This document shows, piece after piece, positions 223 to 44,130 of a stretch of DNA of 44,130 bases. Under the pieces are notes generated by a model that did not search any database, was not told the origin of the DNA, and saw only the letters and a program-made list of their open reading frames with translations. The position numbers were made by a program, and so were the translations under genes. Position 1 is the stretch's first letter. Each line of letters starts with the position of its first letter. Source of the stretch: a phage; the sequence record QB031380.1; one strand, 5' to 3'.

Positions 223-235
223 AGAGGACGAGACA

Positions 236-487
236 ATGGCACGCTTCACGCTAATCGAGGCGGTGGATTCCCGCGACCAGCGCCCGTACTATTGGTTATT
301 CGAACGCATCGGCAGCTTTCAATCGCGCGTTGCCGTAATTGATAAACGCCGCAACACCCCCGCGCAAATTAAGCGCACCACCTTTACTAACCCCGACTTT
401 TATATTTGGGCGGATTCCAATCTGGAATATGTTCGCTTCGCAGTTGCATCCGAAGCAAAAACAATTGACCGCTGGGAGACAAAATAA
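236..487 (+). CDS. hypothetical protein
   Basis: 83 aa ORF with ATG start and GAGG-type RBS; first gene after the terminator. Confidence 0.5.
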   Translation: MARFTLIEAVDSRDQRPYYWLFERIGSFQSRVAVIDKRRNTPAQIKRTTFTNPDFYIWADSNLEYVRFAVASEAKTIDRWETK

Positions 488-29589: not shown

Positions 29590-29619
29590 TTGCACTGCGG
29601 GAATTGGTTGCGCTATATT
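29590..29619 (+). promoter_or_regulatory. sigma70-like promoter TTGCAC-N18-TATATT with GGTTGC elements
   Basis: Hexamers read directly; ATTGGTTGCGC in the spacer and GGTTGCAC just after the -10. Confidence 0.45.
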
Positions 29620-29648
29620 GGTTGCACACCAACAACGAGGACACAAAA

Positions 29649-30413
29649 ATGAGACTGACGAAAGATATTAAAAATCAGATTCTGGCTAACATCCTGCGCG
29701 ACCACGAAATCGCTACCGAAGCCAAACAAATCATGATGGACTCACGCGATCTGGCGTACGCAATCACGCTGGACTGTATGCCGGAAGGCATTCGCACGTT
29801 CGCAGCGCTCCGCGAGCGTATCGAGGCAATCAGCGATGACCCGTCGCAGATGTACGGCGTCAGCGTTTACACCAACAAGGCGACGTATAGTTATAACACC
29901 GACCGTCCGAAGGGCATCGGCAGCGTCTATAACGCCACCTTTGAAATCAACGCAGGTGGCAATGTTCGCACCTTGTCATTGAGCGGCGACGGTCGCCAAC
30001 ACCGCATACATCGCGGGTACTGGGAAGAGAAATATATGAATAAGCTATCCCCCGATCTCGGCGATATCGTTCCAGGGTTCGAGTCAGTTATGCTCGCGTC
30101 AGTGTGTGAAGTGGACGAGGACGGGAAAGCGTTGCCGATATATCTTCCACGCGGTCGCGTAGACTACCCGGAAGATCATGATTTCTGTAAGCGCCTGGAC
30201 CGCAACGACAAGGCCCGTCGCGAGTTGCGCGCGAAGTATGATGCGTTCAAACTCACCGTTACCGGTGTGCTGGACCTGCACAACACTGACAAGAAGCTGA
30301 TTAAGGCATGGCCTGAAGTTGAGCAATTCATCCCATACCCGGACAAGCCAAAATCCACGGCGGTGGCGCTGGATGTGAAAACGCTCAACGAGATTTGCGG
30401 CATTCCGCGCTAA
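29649..30413 (+). CDS. hypothetical protein on the opposite strand within the head operon, with own promoter and terminator
   Basis: ATG with GAGGA RBS; about 254 aa; flanked by a promoter and a terminator. Confidence 0.55.
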   Translation: MRLTKDIKNQILANILRDHEIATEAKQIMMDSRDLAYAITLDCMPEGIRTFAALRERIEAISDDPSQMYGVSVYTNKATYSYNTDRPKGIGSVYNATFEINAGGNVRTLSLSGDGRQHRIHRGYWEEKYMNKLSPDLGDIVPGFESVMLASVCEVDEDGKALPIYLPRGRVDYPEDHDFCKRLDRNDKARRELRAKYDAFKLTVTGVLDLHNTDKKLIKAWPEVEQFIPYPDKPKSTAVALDVKTLNEICGIPR

Positions 30414-36947: not shown

Positions 36948-37028
36948 CTATATCAATTCGCAAATAACCATGCCGATGAAAGCCGCGGTGGTCCAGATTG
37001 CTAATACCCAAATATCGTTACGTGTCAT
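36948..37028 (-). CDS. putative 26 aa hydrophobic peptide
   Basis: ATG preceded by AAGAGGAG RBS; peptide MTRNDIWVLAIWTTAAFIGMVICELI. Confidence 0.25.
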   Translation of the reverse strand: MTRNDIWVLAIWTTAAFIGMVICELI

Positions 37029-37091
37029 CTTGATTACTCCTCTTATTGGTTGGTTGCAGTATGGCCCCTATGTTGGTTGCAAGTCAAGCAA

Positions 37092-40319: not shown

Positions 40320-40347
40320 CGTTCAGTCCTCATGTTGGTGTGCAACC

Positions 40348-40376
40348 AATCTAGCAGGGTGCTGGCTCGAATGCAA
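40348..40376 (-). promoter_or_regulatory. sigma70-like promoter TTGCAT-N17-TAGATT flanked by TTGGTTGCA elements
   Basis: Minus strand reads ATTGGTTGCAT...TAGATTGGTTGCAC. Confidence 0.45.
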
Positions 40377-40530
40377 CCAATATTAATCATGCGCATGAAA
40401 AAGTTGATCGCTATCTGCTGTGACTGCAAACTGCATTTTTCGCACCACGTTCTGCATCTCGCATTGGTTGCCTAGTTCAGTGGCGACCGCAATCCGCAAC
40501 ATGCTGCCGTGTATTTTGCAATCCCGGATT

Positions 40531-40705
40531 TTATGCAGTCTCAGACGAGGGGGGCCATTGACCCCCGTCTAGTCTGAAAGACTGGGAGTTGTCCCGCCTG
40601 TCCCGCTCCTCGCCAGGCCGCGTCATCCGGGGCGGGACAGGGGTGCTGTCCCGCTTTGTCCCGCCCTTGGTCTGTCCCGCTTTTTGTCCCGCTTACTTTA
40701 TGCAG
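40531..40705. repeat. Iteron-rich intergenic element, copy 2
   Basis: Near-identical to 23711-23884; bounded by TTATGCAG at both ends; about 8 GTCCCGC/GCGGGAC heptamers. Confidence 0.8.
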
Positions 40706-40740
40706 TTTTATTGCATAACTATTCACTATATTTTTACTAC

Positions 40741-40790
40741 ACGGCAACCAATGCGACCGACTAAAAATACACAAAACGGCAACCAATGCG
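40741..40790. repeat. Direct repeat ACGGCAACCAATGCG x2 just downstream of the primase/helicase stop
   Basis: Two identical 15-mers about 34 bp apart. Confidence 0.6.
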
Positions 40791-40798
40791 CGCAAAAT

Positions 40799-43063
40799 TT
40801 AATCTTTCAGGTCGTCATCGGTAGCTGAAAGCGTTATGGGGATATCCGATTTGATGACTAAATTCGACGACCCATATATGGCCCCGGTGTGCGGATCTGT
40901 ATAAAAACCAATCACGCCGCGCTCGACCATATCGTCGATTGCCTTCGTCGAAGTACCACCCTTAGCGAGTCCCGCCTGGCGGACAATTGCCGATTTACTG
41001 AATCCAGTATGGTCCGGGTTATCTTCCATCAGTTTTTCCAGGGCCGCATAAAGCACTTTCTCTTTTTCGTTGCGCGGTCCGGCGGCGTTTTCTTCCTTAA
41101 CTGCAGCTTTGCCCGCGGCCTTCGCCTGTTCGATGGCGAACGGTGCCAGGGCGACCGGTACGAGGTACAGAGTCTCGTCGCGTGGCGTGGACGCAATTGG
41201 TTTAACGTCCCAACCGGCAACTACGTCGCCGAAGTCCGGCCCGGTGCTGGTGGACTGGTGCGACGCGAACGCTTCTGACTTGCGGAGATCTACCTTCACC
41301 TTGCACTTGAGCAGGACGAAGCCACGCGGCGCTTGCTTGATGCCATTACGTGATTTTTCGTGATACAGGTTAAGTTGTCCCGGCTGGTTGTCGTCCGGCT
41401 GTTCCAGGAAGAAAGCGGAATCGACAGCACCATGCAGTGCGCCGGACCCACGGGGAGATCTGCTACCGTTTGCACCCTTCGCAGGGTGGTGGATGACGCC
41501 CGCACTGCCGCCTGTGTTTTCCGCGATGGCTTTTAGCGCTTTAACCACTTCGCCCATATCGCTGGCGTTGTTCTCGTCAAACGGTTTAGCATCGGCGGAC
41601 CGCAGCGCAACAGTCTGGTTGAGTGAGTCGAACGCCACCAGGCCAACAGGTTCGCCGTTAGCGGTGCGGTTGATAAAGCTGATAACTTCGCGCAAACCGG
41701 ACTTGCTGGTGATATCCCAGCCGCGGGACTGCAGGTCTATAATGTGCAGCTTGTCCAGGTCGTGCTCGTATTTAATCTGCAATGCTTCTTTGCGCTGGTT
41801 GGAGGCTTCGCCGCCTTCCGCATCAAAATAGAAGCAATGCGACTGGACTACCTTCGCACCACCAAACGGAATACCAGCGGCAACCGCACCCATCTGCCCC
41901 AGCACGTAGAAGGACTTACCTATGTTCGACTCGCCCGCCATATACCAGGTCGATTTGAAGTTAATCAGCCCTTCGATGATCGGGTCGTGCTTGCTGAACA
42001 GTGCGACCGGCTCGTTATCCAGGTCTGCGTCCGTACATTCGCCGTATTCTTCGCCGTCGCCAACCGCATCAACAATATGATCATATAAGGATTCGACTTC
42101 CTCGTCGTCCAGACCTGGCAGGATGGCGGCGATTTGCTTACGTGACATGTTGTGTGGCTCGACGTTCAGGTGGTCCGGGATACCGATAAGACGTAGCGCC
42201 AGGTGCTGGTGTCTATTCAGCTCCGAGCAACACTCGTTGCCTGTGTGCATACACTTGAAACGGATCTCGCCATCCTTAACCATGATAGCCGTCGACCCTT
42301 CGCCGCTGTGCAGATGTTCGTTCGGGCACGGCACTTCATAACCGCGACCGGATGATAACTCCTCGAATCCTGCCTGGAAGCACCAGTCCAGAATGCCGTC
42401 TGCCACTGCGTCGTCGCCCTGGGTAAGCTCGCGGCGTACTTCCTCTTTCTCCACCCCCAGCTTGTCAGCCAGGCGGAGCAGACGCCGCACATTTGCACGT
42501 TTGCCGTAGTGACACTTAATGACAGACTGCTGGTGTGGCAGGTACATAAGACGGTTTGTGTCCTTCGTACAATCGTCGAAGTCCACATCTGACAGGCCCA
42601 GTTGGTGTAATAGCGCATACTGGACACGGCCCAGGTCTTCCGCCGGGACAGGCTTGTCAGTGAGTACCAGGAAGCGAGCGCAACGCGTTCCGCCTTTCAG
42701 TGGGTGGCGGTCGCCGGTGGTTGTGTGGAATACGTGCTCCAGCCCCGCGTCGATGAAAGCCTTACGGCAGCGGCGTAGGGTGCGGGTGTCGGTACGGTCA
42801 ATATCGAAGAACAGGATCGAGCGGTCCACCGCACTGGTCTTGCGGCGTAAGCCGTCACTGGTATACGCCACGATGCCATCGGCCTTACGCTTGCGGCGTG
42901 CATACTCGGCTTTATCTTCCGTCTTGTTGATATGCACCGAGGAGATTTCTTTCGCATCATTGATAAATTCGAAAAATTCATCGGTGGTCATCTGGAAGTT
43001 TTCCGCCCTGGCTTTTTCGCCTTTTTTAGCGGGTCTTGTTACAGCGAATTTAATTAAGCTCAT
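40799..43063 (-). CDS. DNA primase/helicase (primase-like N-terminal region plus RecA-like ATPase)
   Basis: 754 aa; Walker A GESNIGKS; Cys-rich middle segment. Confidence 0.65.
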   Translation of the reverse strand: MSLIKFAVTRPAKKGEKARAENFQMTTDEFFEFINDAKEISSVHINKTEDKAEYARRKRKADGIVAYTSDGLRRKTSAVDRSILFFDIDRTDTRTLRRCRKAFIDAGLEHVFHTTTGDRHPLKGGTRCARFLVLTDKPVPAEDLGRVQYALLHQLGLSDVDFDDCTKDTNRLMYLPHQQSVIKCHYGKRANVRRLLRLADKLGVEKEEVRRELTQGDDAVADGILDWCFQAGFEELSSGRGYEVPCPNEHLHSGEGSTAIMVKDGEIRFKCMHTGNECCSELNRHQHLALRLIGIPDHLNVEPHNMSRKQIAAILPGLDDEEVESLYDHIVDAVGDGEEYGECTDADLDNEPVALFSKHDPIIEGLINFKSTWYMAGESNIGKSFYVLGQMGAVAAGIPFGGAKVVQSHCFYFDAEGGEASNQRKEALQIKYEHDLDKLHIIDLQSRGWDITSKSGLREVISFINRTANGEPVGLVAFDSLNQTVALRSADAKPFDENNASDMGEVVKALKAIAENTGGSAGVIHHPAKGANGSRSPRGSGALHGAVDSAFFLEQPDDNQPGQLNLYHEKSRNGIKQAPRGFVLLKCKVKVDLRKSEAFASHQSTSTGPDFGDVVAGWDVKPIASTPRDETLYLVPVALAPFAIEQAKAAGKAAVKEENAAGPRNEKEKVLYAALEKLMEDNPDHTGFSKSAIVRQAGLAKGGTSTKAIDDMVERGVIGFYTDPHTGAIYGSSNLVIKSDIPITLSATDDDLKD

Positions 43064-43073
43064 TGCCGTGGCC

Positions 43074-43403
43074 TTACTTAGAAGTTTTATTATTGCGTAC
43101 CCATGAGCGCACTGTGCTCTGATTAATTCCTGTCAACTCAGCGATCATTGCCCAGGATTTGCCCTCGGCGCGCAAACGGATAACCTGTTTTTTGTATTCT
43201 TCCATTTCTTCATTGTGCTTTTGCAGCTTGCTGGCTGCCGTACCGTTGAGCAATTCCAGCCTGGCGCGTAATTCTTTTTCTACACTGCGCAGGCGCTCGA
43301 CCTCAAATAGCACCGCACCCACGGCATCGGTATACGCCCAGGACCGGCTTGTCTCACTGCAAACAGTCTTAGTTAACATTTCTATTGCGTCGTTTACATT
43401 CAT
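43074..43403 (-). CDS. HTH DNA-binding regulator
   Basis: 109 aa; C-terminal GKSWAMIAELTGINQSTVRSW helix-turn-helix; GAGGA RBS. Confidence 0.6.
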   Translation of the reverse strand: MNVNDAIEMLTKTVCSETSRSWAYTDAVGAVLFEVERLRSVEKELRARLELLNGTAASKLQKHNEEMEEYKKQVIRLRAEGKSWAMIAELTGINQSTVRSWVRNNKTSK

Positions 43404-43434
43404 TGCTCTGTCCTCGGTTGGTTAATGACCAACG

Positions 43435-43463
43435 AAGCTACACCTAAAACCGCAGGGTGTCAA
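43435..43463 (-). promoter_or_regulatory. sigma70-like promoter TTGACA-N17-TAGCTT for the HTH regulator gene
   Basis: Perfect -35 hexamer; palindrome CGTTGGT-catta-ACCAACG lies between the -10 and the RBS. Confidence 0.5.
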
Positions 43464-43476
43464 CTTCTTTGGAATA

Positions 43477-43504
43477 TTGAAACGGGCGCGCACGCGTGTA
43501 ATAA
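43477..43504 (+). promoter_or_regulatory. sigma70-like promoter TTGAAA-N16-TG-TAATAAT, divergent from the regulator promoter
   Basis: Hexamers and extended -10 TG read directly. Confidence 0.45.
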
Positions 43505-43532
43505 TACCCCCGTCTCATTGTCTCTTATTGGT

Positions 43533-43569
43533 TAGCGCCGTCGCATTTTGCTTCGGCGCTTTTTTTTTG
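43533..43569 (+). terminator. Rho-independent terminator
   Basis: AGCGCCG...CGGCGCT stem followed by a run of nine T. Confidence 0.6.
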
Positions 43570-43579
43570 AAATTAGTTG

Positions 43580-43608
43580 TTGACTCCCTCATGCAACCAA
43601 TCTAATAT
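43580..43608 (+). promoter_or_regulatory. sigma70-like promoter TTGACT-N17-TAATAT with TGCAACCAA in the spacer
   Basis: Hexamers and motif read directly; about 200 nt upstream of the ATG at 43805. Confidence 0.45.
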
Positions 43609-43804
43609 TCACCTCGTCGACAGGATGCAGGACGCAAACTGGAGAGGGGCAACGCAGGGGCCGGATCGAAGTGTCAGGATTCCCAACCGTGATTATATAA
43701 CCAGGTCCACTACCCGAACGGGAGAACGCGTAACCTGGCAATATGTTAAGGCCACCGACGAAGTTAATGGTCGACACCTAAACTTAACCAATCGGAGATA
43801 TACC

Positions 43805-44130
43805 ATGTTTGAGCAAATCGTAAACCTGATCACTCGCGGCGTAGTAGCACTGGAAACCATCGCAAAACATTATGAAACCGTGGGCGCTGCCGTTGGTAAG
43901 CAGGAAGACAAGAAGCCGTCTAAGGCCAAAAAAGAAGTTGTCGAAGATGACGACGCTGAAGACGAAGCACCGGCGAAAACCAAAAAAGCACCGGCGAAAG
44001 GTAAGGCCAAAAAAGAAGTCGTAGAGGATGACGACGAGGATGAATCCGAAGACGAAAAACCGGCGAAGGGTAAAAAAGCACCCGCGAAAGGCAAAGGTAA
44101 GAAAGATGCCGATCCGCTAGCAGAGATGCG
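43805..44130 (+). CDS. N-terminal part of an acidic/Lys-rich repeat protein (runs off the window end)
   Basis: ATG with GGAGA RBS; repeats of KKEVVEDDD and KAPAKGK; no stop before the window end; not in the ORF track. Confidence 0.5.
   Translation, partial: MFEQIVNLITRGVVALETIAKHYETVGAAVGKQEDKKPSKAKKEVVEDDDAEDEAPAKTKKAPAKGKAKKEVVEDDDEDESEDEKPAKGKKAPAKGKGKKDADPLAEM

What the first reader, a model, noticed from the sequence alone, without database searches (positions are those of the whole stretch)
43477..43569. Promoter followed within about 30 nt by a strong terminator and no ORF: candidate small RNA or attenuator
A good promoter (TTGAAA-N16-TG-TAATAAT) is followed by a 7 bp GC stem and a run of nine T with no ORF between them. 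The predicted transcript is only about 60 nt and contains a TTATTGGTTAG element. It is divergent from the regulator promoter and lies upstream of the promoter for the acidic repeat protein.
Basis: seen in the sequence. Interest (0 to 1): 0.5.

Follow-up and report, generated by a model that had tools for sequence, protein, structure and literature searches.

The report
Conserved small RNA gene in a coliphage
A strong promoter and the strongest terminator in this virulent E. coli phage (Dhillonvirus) bracket a conserved RNA of about 55 nt with no ORF, whose free 5' end is complementary, with compensatory changes across phage lineages, to the translation start sites of the phage's primase-helicase gene and of the first gene of its replication operon, so it is most likely an unannotated regulatory small RNA.

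Summary
P1 (TTGAAA-N17-TGT-AATAAT, 43477-43505) is followed 28 nt later by a hairpin (43534-43560, -16.2 kcal/mol, z -3.9) and nine T (43560-43568). It is one of only two strong canonical terminators in the 44-kb genome and the only one with a promoter just upstream.

The window is a near-complete Dhillonvirus genome, and the site lies in the central divergent early control region. Across 30 distinct Dhillonvirus sequences, the 22-nt single-stranded 5' part of the predicted transcript has one variable column. The 6 nt before +1 and the flanks vary freely.

Four diverged lineages (primase 66-69% identical) keep the layout P1, short transcript, hairpin plus T9-13, P2. Their hairpin sequences are entirely different.

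The 5' motif YUCAUUGYY pairs 7-12 bp with the primase-helicase translation start in every lineage, with four compensatory pairs. The 3' seed pairs with the Shine-Dalgarno region of the acidic-protein gene, and cognate pairs are best.

Best reading: an unannotated trans-acting small RNA that represses translation of replication genes (confidence about 0.6). No expression data exist. An attenuator role is poorly supported. It is a new member of a known kind.

A mobile, covarying 150-nt structured RNA sits in the adjacent leader.

The parts
43435..43463 (-). Leftward promoter of the 109-aa HTH regulator (-35 TTGACA 43463-43458, 17-nt spacer, -10 TAGCTT 43440-43435). It stands back to back with P1, with 13 bp between the two -35 hexamers.
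   Evidence: Sequence. The orthologous promoter is annotated in HK578 record JQ086375.
43417..43433 (.). Palindrome GTTGGTTAATGACCAAC (TTGGT-N5-ACCAA) at the start of the leftward transcript. It is probably an operator.
   Evidence: Sequence. It is conserved in phages that carry the 109-aa regulator and absent from HK578/CHD5UKE2, which carry a different leftward gene. The same TTGGT-N5-ACCAA arrangement occurs at about 40334-40350 and 29609-29625.
43477..43505 (+). P1, the promoter of the short transcript (TTGAAA, 17-nt G+C-rich spacer, TGT-AATAAT).
   Evidence: 10/12 match with an extended -10. Annotated in HK578. Equivalent sigma-70-like promoters occur in four diverged lineages.
43506..43511 (+). 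Stretch between the -10 and +1. It varies in sequence and length among relatives.
   Evidence: 8 of 9 alignment columns are variable among 30 distinct sequences.
43512..43568 (+). Predicted small RNA of about 50-57 nt: GUCUCAUUGUCUCUUAUUGGUUA, then the hairpin, then the U tail.
   Evidence: Boundaries are inferred from the promoter geometry and the terminator. Conservation coincides with these boundaries.
43512..43533 (+). Single-stranded 5' part (seed). Positions 43514-43522 (CUCAUUGUC) are complementary to the primase-helicase start region. Positions 43519-43534 are complementary to the acidic-protein Shine-Dalgarno region.
   Evidence: Unpaired in both the MFE and centroid folds. 1 of 22 columns is variable. 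Complementarities are shown.
43534..43560 (+). Terminator hairpin (7-bp outer stem plus a 3-bp inner stem).
   Evidence: -16.2 kcal/mol, z -3.9. L015/L023 carry two compensatory double changes, GCGCCG/CGGCGC to UCCCCG/CGGGGA. Other lineages have unrelated hairpins at the same place. Annotated as a terminator in WF5505.
43560..43568 (+). T9 tract. It is 9-13 T in relatives. It also lies at about -46 to -54 of P2, the position of an UP element.
   Evidence: Sequence. Length variation is shown. The UP-element role is an inference from position.
43580..43608 (+). P2, the promoter of the rightward replication operon (TTGACT-N17-TAATAT), with a GCAACCAAT motif (43593-43601) inside its spacer.
   Evidence: Diverged lineages carry two motif copies in the P2 spacer.
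43059..43067 (-). Predicted target 1: the start-codon region of the primase-helicase mRNA (GGCAAUGAG; ATG at 43063-43061).
   Evidence: Pairing is 9 bp here and 10-12 bp in other lineages. In HK578 there are 8 bp at the probable Shine-Dalgarno sequence plus 7 bp at the AUG. Covariation statistics are and shuffle p-values of 0.003-0.021.
43785..43800 (+). Predicted target 2: UAACCAAU-C-GGAGAUA, covering the Shine-Dalgarno sequence of the acidic repeat protein gene (ATG at 43805).
   Evidence: Two helices of 8 and 7 bp, -17.9 kcal/mol, shuffle p 0.0015-0.011. Cognate pairs are the best in a cross-lineage matrix.
43404..43430 (-). Possible target 3: the translation start region of the regulator mRNA (UUAACCAACCGAGGACAGAGCAAUG).
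   Evidence: Duplex of -17.6 kcal/mol, shuffle p 0.02. The Shine-Dalgarno part of this site is not conserved among relatives, so this is the weakest candidate.

Best explanation
The region 43477-43568 is an independent gene for a non-coding RNA of about 55 nt.

How it is made (inferred): host RNA polymerase starts at the near-consensus, apparently operator-free promoter P1. It stops at a strong intrinsic terminator. The released RNA has a 22-nt unstructured 5' end, a GC hairpin and a U tail, which is the usual build of an enterobacterial base-pairing small RNA.

How it acts (inferred): the 5' end pairs with translation start regions of phage mRNAs made from the two divergent operons that flank it. 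The most conserved predicted target is the start-codon region of the primase-helicase mRNA in the leftward operon. The second is the Shine-Dalgarno region of the acidic repeat protein, the first gene of the rightward replication operon. Pairing inside the ribosome footprint would block initiation and so lower synthesis of these early and replication proteins.

What is shown here in silico: the promoter and terminator, their conservation, the boundaries of conservation, the absence of a conserved ORF, and the complementarities with covariation.

What is inferred: that the RNA accumulates, that it acts in trans, that the effect is repression, and that Hfq is involved.
For: 1. Signals. P1 scores 10/12 with TG. 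The hairpin has -16.2 kcal/mol and z -3.9. It is one of two strong canonical terminators in the genome and the only one with a promoter just upstream.

2. Conservation matches transcript boundaries. Among 30 distinct Dhillonvirus sequences the seed has 1 variable column of 22. The 6 nt upstream of +1 have 8 of 9 variable columns, and the leftward promoter region has 24 of 43. Phages whose regulator protein is only 77% identical carry an identical seed.

3. Structure is conserved, not sequence. L015/L023 have two compensatory double changes in the stem. L018/L054, L052/L053 and L055 (primase 66-69% identical) have unrelated GC hairpins followed by T9-13, at the same place between a sigma-70-like promoter and P2.

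4. No conserved ORF. There are frameshifting indels, and the annotated ORFs over the region differ in length between records.

5. Primase-helicase target. The RNA's 5' end pairs with the primase translation start in every lineage. Pairing is 9 bp in the window, 12 in L023, 12 in L050, 10 in L054, 11 in L053, 10 in L052 and about 9 in L055. HK578 has 8 bp at the Shine-Dalgarno sequence plus 7 at the AUG. In a concatenated alignment, 84.5% of cells pair, against 33-48% in slid registers. Four pairs change on both sides. The covariation score is 0.164 against 0.110 +/- 0.015 in shuffles, with 0 of 500 shuffles as high. Duplex shuffle p-values are 0.003-0.021 in all seven lineages.

6. Acidic-protein target. 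Cognate RNA and Shine-Dalgarno duplexes are the best in a cross-lineage matrix. Shuffle p-values are 0.011 (window), <0.001 (L018), 0.001 (L054), 0.006 (L053), 0.004 (L052), 0.07 (L055) and 0.23 (L015). The AUUGGUU in the RNA and the AACCAAU at this site are present together, degenerate together (L015 type) or absent together (diverged lineages). The DNA motif GCAACCAAT persists in P2 in all of them.

7. Genome-wide. In phage SM_S22, which has an identical RNA, 6 of 66 translation start regions have a complement of 8 nt or more. Seed shuffles give 0.82 on average, and 0 of 500 reach 6.
Against: - No transcript data of any kind could be found.
- In the window's own lineage, pairing with the primase start is modest: 7 Watson-Crick pairs plus G-U and G-C.
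- The covariation rests on about six related lineages and a hand-anchored alignment derived from the same sequences. The tool itself warns that this favours the proposed structure.
- The seed contains an anti-AUG (CAU) and an anti-Shine-Dalgarno run (UCUC or CUCCU). This raises matches to any translation start, and dinucleotide shuffles do not preserve these motifs.
- Folding the hypothetical read-through RNA pairs the seed with the acidic-protein start site. Shuffled seeds do so nearly as often in the window type (p 0.19-0.44), so that test is uninformative.
- The AUUGGUUA part matches the core of an over-represented DNA motif, so some of its conservation may be at the DNA level.
- The direction of regulation is unknown.
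Confidence: 0.6

Rival explanations
1. Attenuator or antitermination site. The purpose of P1 is to feed the rightward operon, and the terminator is a checkpoint that a phage or host factor overrides. The short RNA would be a by-product, as was long assumed for lambda 6S RNA.
For: The layout of a promoter, a short leader, a strong terminator and then an operon resembles lambda PR'-tR'. The terminator is on the same strand as the operon and upstream of it. The seed could also sequester the acidic-protein ribosome-binding site in cis on read-through RNA.
Against: P2, a good promoter, lies 12 bp after the T run in every lineage, so the operon does not need read-through. Only 22 unstructured nt precede the hairpin, and no alternative fold is predicted. 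No antiterminator is annotated in a function-annotated relative. The model does not explain complementarity to the primase-helicase start, which is on the opposite operon. The cis-pairing test is not significant for the window type.
Confidence: 0.12
2. Promoter architecture only. The hairpin and T tract insulate P2 and supply its UP element, and P1 exists as a divergent partner of the regulator promoter. The RNA itself has no function.
For: The T tract lies at about -46 to -54 of P2, and an A/T-rich stretch precedes P2 even in relatives that lack the hairpin (L056, L057). Terminator sequences can contribute to adjacent promoters (bioRxiv 10.64898/2026.08.19.745784).
Against: It does not explain why the 22 transcribed nt before the hairpin are the most conserved stretch of the region. 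It does not explain why they covary with the primase translation start. The coupled terminator-promoter pairs in the cited preprint lie within 35 bp, whereas here the spacing is about 47 bp.
Confidence: 0.1
3. DNA-level operator. The conserved TTATTGGTTAG, and perhaps more of the block, is a binding site for the phage regulator that recognises GCAACCAAT/TTGGT-N5-ACCAA. Conservation would then reflect protein binding rather than RNA function.
For: GCAACCAAT occurs 15 times exactly, and 29 times with at most 1 mismatch against 12.4 +/- 3.4 expected. Related sites flank the RNA gene: a palindrome at 43417-43433 and a copy in the P2 spacer. The regulator has an HTH domain.
Against: The copy in the RNA gene matches only 7 of 9 positions and has no partner half-site. 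The invariant GTCTCATTGTCTC has no resemblance to the motif. Diverged lineages keep GCAACCAAT in P2 but have lost TTGGTTA from the RNA, together with AACCAAT at the acidic-protein start. Hairpin covariation argues for an RNA.
Confidence: 0.08
4. Replication primer or origin activator. The short transcript primes or opens a nearby origin, as promoter transcripts do at the T7 and T4 origins.
For: The site lies in the control region next to the primase-helicase and replication operons.
Against: An efficiently terminated and released RNA is a poor primer. No A/T-rich unwinding element or iteron cluster follows it. A better origin-like region (A/T-rich with five GCAACCAAT copies) lies at 40342-40787. 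The model does not explain complementarity to translation start sites.
Confidence: 0.04
5. A small protein is encoded here: the 36-aa or 42-aa ORF on the plus strand, or the 24-aa ORF on the minus strand.
For: Gene callers annotated ORFs across the region in some records (bas15_0049, SM_S22 CDS0052, CHD5UKE2_040). The minus strand reads like a ribosome-binding site followed by ATG.
Against: 1-nt indels in 43465-43476 and 43506-43511 shift every frame among close relatives. Annotated lengths differ (36, 59 and 47 aa). The plus-strand ORFs start upstream of the promoter. No leftward promoter would serve the minus-strand ORF, and its Shine-Dalgarno-like sequence lies only 2 nt from the ATG.
Confidence: 0.01

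Closest known systems
Lambda 6S RNA and StxS of Shiga-toxin phages (short transcripts from PR' ended at tR')
   Same: A strong constitutive promoter is followed after a short ORF-free stretch by an intrinsic terminator, upstream of an operon on the same strand. The terminated RNA has been reported to bind Hfq and act in trans (bioRxiv 10.1101/2024.10.31.621285).
   Different: Those RNAs precede late genes in temperate lambdoid phages, and Q protein reads through their terminator. Here the phage is virulent and the downstream operon is the replication operon. That operon has its own promoter directly after the terminator, and no antiterminator is annotated. There is no sequence or Rfam similarity.
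P1/P7 c4 RNA, P4 CI RNA and N15 CA RNA (phage immunity RNAs; from my own knowledge)
   Same: A small phage RNA is encoded upstream of its target on the same strand. It pairs by short complementary boxes with the ribosome-binding site of a downstream gene.
   Different: Those RNAs are processed from the same transcript as their target and control antirepressor or immunity functions in temperate elements. This RNA has its own terminator. Its best-conserved predicted target lies on the opposite operon. The host phage has no lysogeny module.
Plasmid antisense control of replication-protein translation (R1 CopA/CopT, ColIb-P9 Inc RNA; from my own knowledge)
   Same: A constitutively made short RNA would block translation of the replicon's own replication protein. 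Its level would therefore rise with gene dosage.
   Different: The plasmid RNAs are cis-encoded antisense transcripts with full complementarity. Here the gene lies about 450 nt from the target and pairing is 9-12 bp.
Enterobacterial Hfq-dependent small RNAs with 5'-terminal seeds, such as RybB and OmrA/B (from my own knowledge), and lambda PreS
   Same: The build is the same: an unstructured conserved 5' seed, a terminator hairpin and a U tail of 8 or more. Predicted pairing lies within the ribosome footprint of the targets.
   Different: There is no sequence similarity. The best Rfam hits score 15-22 bits against gathering scores of 39-79. The RNA is encoded by a virulent siphophage, and its predicted targets are the phage's own genes. 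Hfq binding is untested.

Membership tests
Trans-acting base-pairing small RNA (enterobacterial Hfq-type build) | Own promoter | tested here: met
   10/12 sigma-70 match with an extended -10. Equivalent promoters occur in four diverged lineages. In silico only.
Trans-acting base-pairing small RNA (enterobacterial Hfq-type build) | Intrinsic terminator hairpin followed by a U tract | tested here: met
   -16.2 kcal/mol, z -3.9, U9. Stem covariation and lineage-specific hairpins with T9-13. One of two such sites in the genome.
Trans-acting base-pairing small RNA (enterobacterial Hfq-type build) | No conserved ORF | tested here: met
   Frameshifting indels among close relatives. Annotated ORF lengths are inconsistent.
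Trans-acting base-pairing small RNA (enterobacterial Hfq-type build) | Conserved single-stranded seed | tested here: met
   Unpaired in the MFE and centroid folds. 1 of 22 columns is variable among 30 distinct sequences.
Trans-acting base-pairing small RNA (enterobacterial Hfq-type build) | Complementarity to target mRNAs that is maintained in evolution | tested here: met
   Primase-helicase start: 9-12 bp in every lineage, four compensatory pairs, covariation above all 500 shuffles. Acidic-protein Shine-Dalgarno region: cognate duplexes are best. The evidence is computational, from few lineages and a hand-anchored alignment.
Trans-acting base-pairing small RNA (enterobacterial Hfq-type build) | Accumulates as a discrete RNA, binds Hfq, and changes target expression | not testable with these tools
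   No transcript or interaction data for Dhillonvirus were found in the paper library.
Lambda 6S / StxS type (PR'-tR' with Q antitermination) | Lies in front of the late (lysis and structural) operon | tested here: not met
   The downstream operon encodes the acidic protein, exonuclease, single-strand annealing protein, DNA polymerase and helicase.
Lambda 6S / StxS type (PR'-tR' with Q antitermination) | The phage encodes a Q-family antiterminator | tested here: not met
   None is annotated in the function-annotated relative SM_S22. This is an indirect test, because the proteins were not scanned individually.
Lambda 6S / StxS type (PR'-tR' with Q antitermination) | The operon depends on read-through, with no promoter after the terminator | tested here: not met
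   P2 (TTGACT-N17-TAATAT) starts 12 bp after the T tract in all lineages.
P1 c4 / P4 CI type immunity RNA | Processed from the same transcript as its target, in the immunity region of a temperate element | tested here: not met
   It has its own terminator and a separate P2. No integrase or repressor module is present.
P1 c4 / P4 CI type immunity RNA | Pairs with the ribosome-binding site of a downstream gene on the same strand | tested here: met
   Pairing with the acidic-protein Shine-Dalgarno region. In silico only.
Cis-antisense RNA (lambda OOP, P22 sar, plasmid CopA) | Transcribed from the strand opposite its target, with full complementarity | tested here: not met
   The gene is intergenic. 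The targets lie about 450 nt and 270 nt away, with 9-16 bp of imperfect pairing.
Transcription attenuator (riboswitch, leader peptide, T-box) | A sensor domain or leader ORF, with an antiterminator fold that competes with the terminator | tested here: not met
   Only 22 nt lie upstream of the hairpin, and they are unstructured in the MFE and centroid folds. The only in-transcript ORF is a 5-codon TTG ORF with no Shine-Dalgarno sequence. There is no Rfam cis-regulatory hit above threshold.
Rfam families (STnc480, RsaE, ncS54, rli61, asX2) | Score at or above the family's gathering threshold | tested here: not met
   The best scores are 15-22 bits against thresholds of 39-79, with E-values of 0.57-6.9.

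The most novel reading that the evidence does not exclude
The RNA is a gene-dosage sensor for a virulent phage. It is made constitutively from every genome copy and blocks translation of the replicative primase-helicase and of the first gene of the replication operon. It would therefore throttle or time replication as copies accumulate. This is the logic of plasmid antisense copy-number control, carried out here in trans by a short-seed small RNA. It would work alongside a DNA-binding regulator that shuts the two flanking promoters.
Probability: 0.15. Interest if true: 0.75.

Novelty: new member of a known kind. Interest (0 to 1): 0.55.

Why it matters
Most characterised phage small RNAs come from temperate phages and prophages, and a 2025 review (PMC12197685) is organised around those. 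This would be a conserved small RNA in a virulent siphophage genus with more than 150 sequenced isolates, some of them therapy candidates and members of the BASEL collection.

Its predicted targets are the phage's own replication genes. That would add a post-transcriptional layer to early gene control. The hypothesis is simple to test: two defined target sites, natural compensatory variants already available, and a 55-nt gene that is easy to delete.

It also corrects annotation. Several GenBank records place spurious ORFs over this RNA.

Tried and rejected
- **Rfam scan** of 42500-44130 at E up to 10: only sub-threshold noise.
- **Sliding RNAduplex** of the seed against the whole genome: energies were dominated by long looped duplexes and were uninformative. 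I replaced it with exact-complement and translation-start-centred tests.
- **Folding the hypothetical P1 read-through RNA:** the seed pairs with the acidic-protein start site in all lineages. The shuffle control shows this is not significant for the window type (p 0.19-0.44), so I do not use it as evidence.
- **Genome-wide count of TTGGTTA:** 5 copies against 4.2 expected, so no enrichment. The longer GCAACCAAT is the enriched motif.
- **Searches for distant relatives.** Metagenome and viral-contig scans returned almost only close Dhillonviruses. Diversity came from primase-helicase homologues instead. The next clade out (primase 43-49% identical; L056-L058) has no such module, so the element is restricted to Dhillonvirus-like phages.
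- **Small-protein readings** were rejected because of frameshifting indels.
- **No copy** of the module in 5,426 complete E. coli genomes.
- **No tRNA or tmRNA** in the window.
- **Literature searches** for Dhillonvirus small RNAs or transcriptomes, and for the sequences themselves, found nothing relevant.
- **Host mRNA targets** could not be screened. The seed is too short for the available genome search.
Full report
**What the window is.** The last 1.1 kb matches more than 190 phage records, and 134 of them cover at least 80% of the query, mostly at 90-96% identity. Nearly all are Dhillonvirus, the HK578/EP23/SO-1-like virulent siphophages of E. coli. The 44,130-base window is essentially a whole genome.

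A function-annotated relative (SM_S22) shows that the intergenic region 43404-43804 is the central divergent control region:
- To the left run a 109-aa HTH protein (Pfam HTH_23 and Sigma70_r4_2), the primase-helicase, small genes, lysis genes and then the structural genes.
- To the right run the acidic repeat protein, an exonuclease, a single-strand annealing protein, DNA polymerase, a helicase and methylases.

**Checking the observation.** All the described features are present.
- P1 is TTGAAA (43477-82), a 17-nt spacer, TG (43497-98) and AATAAT (43500-05). It scores 10/12 with an extended -10, the best promoter-like site in the last 3 kb.
- Twenty-eight nt after the -10 begins a hairpin (43534-43560) with a 7-bp outer stem and a 3-bp inner stem. 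Its energy is -16.2 kcal/mol and z is -3.9. Nine T follow (43560-43568).
- A whole-genome scan for a hairpin of -9 kcal/mol or better followed by at least seven T finds two sites on either strand. Only this one has a promoter just upstream.
- The HK578 record already annotates P1, the leftward promoter and P2. The WF5505 record annotates the terminator. No record annotates an RNA gene, and several place short ORFs over the region.

**Conservation pattern.** I aligned the region from 50 loci, which gave 30 distinct sequences.
- The 22 nt from the predicted +1 (G43512) to the hairpin have one variable column. That column is a single-T deletion in one lineage.
- The 6 nt between the -10 and +1 vary in 8 of 9 columns, indels included.
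- The leftward promoter region varies in 24 of 43 columns.
- The T tract varies from 9 to 13 T.
- Phages whose regulator protein is only 77% identical to the window's have an identical seed.

The sharp onset of conservation at the predicted start is what an RNA gene predicts. The 1-nt indels rule out every overlapping ORF.

**Diverged lineages.** Contigs carrying primase-helicase homologues of 66-69% identity all keep the gene order and the layout. The order is: leftward promoter, P1-like promoter, a 60-75-nt transcript, a GC hairpin plus T9-13, P2, a leader and the acidic-protein gene.
- The hairpins are unrelated in sequence: GCGCCG/CGGCGC, UCCCCG/CGGGGA, CCCCAG/CUGGGG, GCCUGGCC/GGUCAGGC and GCCCGCAAAA/UUUUGCGGGU.
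- The transcripts share a 5' motif YUCAUUGYY. The diverged ones also share CUCCUGAA just before the hairpin.
- The next clade out (primase 43-49% identical) lacks the module.

Selection has therefore kept termination at this spot and the 5' sequence, but not the stem sequence.

**What the seed could pair with.** Exact-complement searches in the diverged loci gave the same top hit each time, the start of the primase-helicase gene. The hits are GACAAUGAGCAA (12 nt, L050), GACAAUGAGC (L054), AAGCAAUGAGA (L053) and AGCAAUGAAC (L052).
- In the window the site is GGCAAUGAG (43067-43059, minus strand), which gives 9 bp including a G-U pair.
- The L015/L023 lineage has 12 bp.
- HK578-type phages have 8 bp at the probable Shine-Dalgarno sequence and 7 bp at the AUG.
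- Several flanking pairs change on both sides. One is G-C/A-U in L053 against A-U/C-G in L052. Another is U-A/C-G in L018 against C-G/U-A in L053.
- I built a concatenated alignment anchored on CAUUG/CAAUG. On it, 84.5% of cells pair, against 33-48% in registers slid by 1-3. Four pairs show double changes. The covariation score exceeds all 500 shuffles.
- Duplex energies beat seed shuffles in all seven lineages (p 0.003-0.021).

**Second site.** A second site is the Shine-Dalgarno region of the acidic-protein gene. In the window it is UAACCAAU-C-GGAGAUA (43785-43800), which pairs with AUUGGUUA and UGUCUCU of the RNA at -17.9 kcal/mol.
- In diverged lineages both partners have different sequences but still pair. 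Examples are UUUAGGAGU(C) with (G)ACUCCUGAA, and GGAGAUAC with GUAUCUCC.
- In an 8 x 8 matrix the cognate groups give the best energies.
- The AUUGGUU element of the RNA and the AACCAAU at this site are present, degenerate or absent together across lineages.
- Genome-wide in SM_S22, 6 of 66 translation start regions carry a complement of 8 nt or more. Seed shuffles average 0.82, and none of 500 reaches 6.

**Caveats.**
- There are no expression data.
- The lineages are few and related, and the covariation alignment was derived from the same sequences.
- The seed's anti-AUG and anti-Shine-Dalgarno content inflates matches to any translation start.
- One test that looked attractive failed its control. 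Folding a read-through RNA pairs the seed with the acidic-protein start, but shuffled seeds do nearly as well in the window type.
- Part of the seed (TTGGTTA) resembles the core of GCAACCAAT. That is a DNA motif with 15 exact copies in the genome, one of them inside the P2 spacer, and related TTGGT-N5-ACCAA palindromes. Some DNA-level constraint therefore cannot be excluded.

**Mechanism proposed.** P1 carries no copy of that DNA motif. The leftward promoter has a palindrome at its start site, and P2 has the motif in its spacer. I therefore infer that P1 is constitutive, while the two flanking promoters are under the control of a DNA-binding regulator.

On this reading, the RNA would be made from the first minutes of infection and from every genome copy. 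It would bind the ribosome-binding regions of the primase-helicase and acidic-protein mRNAs, and possibly of the regulator mRNA, and would lower their translation. I put this at about 0.6 overall. The existence of a discrete RNA is more likely, at about 0.8. The specific targets and the direction of the effect are less certain.

**Rivals.** An attenuator is unlikely. The leader is short and unstructured, P2 follows immediately, no antiterminator is annotated, and the model does not explain the target on the opposite operon. I also rate these three rivals lower: a purely architectural role (insulation plus an UP element for P2), a purely DNA-level operator, and an origin primer. None of them explains the transcript-bounded conservation together with the covariation. 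Small-protein readings are rejected.

**Comparison with known systems.** The element works most like the short terminated transcripts of lambdoid late promoters (lambda 6S, StxS), which act as Hfq-bound small RNAs. It also resembles phage immunity RNAs that pair with a downstream ribosome-binding site (P1 c4), and it shares the logic of plasmid antisense control of replication proteins.

It fails the defining features of each of those families: the late-operon and Q context, processing from a shared transcript in a temperate element, and cis-antisense overlap. It matches no Rfam family. It fits the general class of trans-acting, terminator-ended base-pairing small RNAs. I therefore file it as a new member of a known kind. 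Interest is moderate (0.55). It would be higher if the gene-dosage reading proved true.

**Seen in passing.** The P2 leader contains an element of about 150 nt (43616-43776) flanked by 7-bp direct repeats.
- It is present in some Dhillonviruses and absent from others.
- It is homologous to unannotated intergenic DNA in Drexlerviridae, Jilinvirus and Sortsnevirus phages.
- It has invariant loops and three nested helices that covary.
- It has no Rfam match.

It looks like an undescribed, horizontally mobile structured RNA and deserves its own study.

Noticed in passing
window 43616-43776 (+), in the leader between P2 and the acidic-protein ATG (43805): An element of about 150 nt lies between 7-bp direct repeats GTCGACA (43616-22 and 43770-76). 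It is present in many Dhillonviruses and precisely absent from others (L004, L011, L013, L015, L020-23, L053). It is homologous over its whole length to unannotated intergenic DNA of unrelated siphophages: Hanrivervirus slyngel and Warwickvirus JLBYU07 (Drexlerviridae), Jilinvirus PT1, Sortsnevirus IME279, HeidiAbel_Bas97 and Motto. The cores GGAGAGGRGCAACGCAGGGGC, GAUCGWAGUGUCAGGAUUCCCAACCGUGA, GAGAACGC and CCGACGAAG are invariant. Three nested helices covary (for example CCAGG/CCUGG, CCUGG/CCAGG, CUAUC/GAUAG, CGCAC/GUGCG, CAUGAU/AUCAUG), and G-U pairs indicate the plus strand. There is no Rfam hit in any copy. It is a candidate undescribed, mobile structured RNA. Whole-element MFE z-scores are not significant.
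   Followed up: partly
window, genome-wide; e.g. 43593-43601, 40342/40373, 40744/40779, 29603/29617 (-), 8924/8941 (-), 10603/10614, 37049/37072 (-): The 9-mer GCAACCAAT occurs 15 times exactly, and 29 times with at most 1 mismatch against 12.4 +/- 3.4 in shuffles. Copies often come in pairs. One copy sits in the spacer of P2, and diverged relatives have two there. Related TTGGT-N5-ACCAA palindromes lie at 43417-43433, about 40334-40350 and about 29609-29625, all in divergent intergenic regions. This is probably the operator motif of a phage DNA-binding regulator, perhaps the 109-aa HTH protein.
   Followed up: partly
window 40320-40799: A stretch of about 480 bp just downstream of the primase-helicase gene holds only small doubtful ORFs. 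It also has five GCAACCAAT copies, two of them in 35-bp repeats ACGGCAACCAATGCG, and an A/T-rich tract. It is a candidate origin of replication or second control region.
   Followed up: no
window 43485-43499 (spacer of P1): The P1 spacer contains GCGCGCACGCGTGT, a 14-nt alternating purine-pyrimidine (Z-DNA-prone) tract that includes the palindrome CACGCGTG. It is almost invariant across Dhillonvirus, which is unusual for a promoter spacer. Diverged lineages also have CGCGCG-rich spacers.
   Followed up: no
window 37027-37090 (-): A terminator-like hairpin, a promoter (TTGACT with GCAACCAAC in its spacer) and a gene start follow one another. Upstream of that start, AACCAAUAAGAG is a perfect 12-nt complement of the small RNA (43522-43533) and abuts the Shine-Dalgarno sequence GAGGAG. 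This is a further candidate target.
   Followed up: partly
window 230-238 (+) and about 29648-29655 (+): GAGACAAUG, at the start of the second gene of the rightward operon (ATG 236), is a 9-nt complement of the small RNA's 5' end. AAUGAGAC, at a probable start near 29649, is an 8-nt complement. The orthologous site at the second gene is also the top hit in SM_S22.
   Followed up: partly
GenBank records of relatives (L002, L003, L021, L022): Gene callers placed ORFs of 36, 59 and 47 aa over the small RNA and over the 150-nt leader element. In RuthEpting_Bas85 the acidic-protein region is annotated on the opposite strand. These look like annotation artefacts.
   Followed up: no
window 43560-43579: The terminator's T9 tract followed by GAAATTAG lies at about -36 to -55 of P2 and resembles an UP element. 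Relatives that lack the hairpin still have an A/T-rich stretch there. Termination of the small RNA and P2 activity may therefore be coupled.
   Followed up: no
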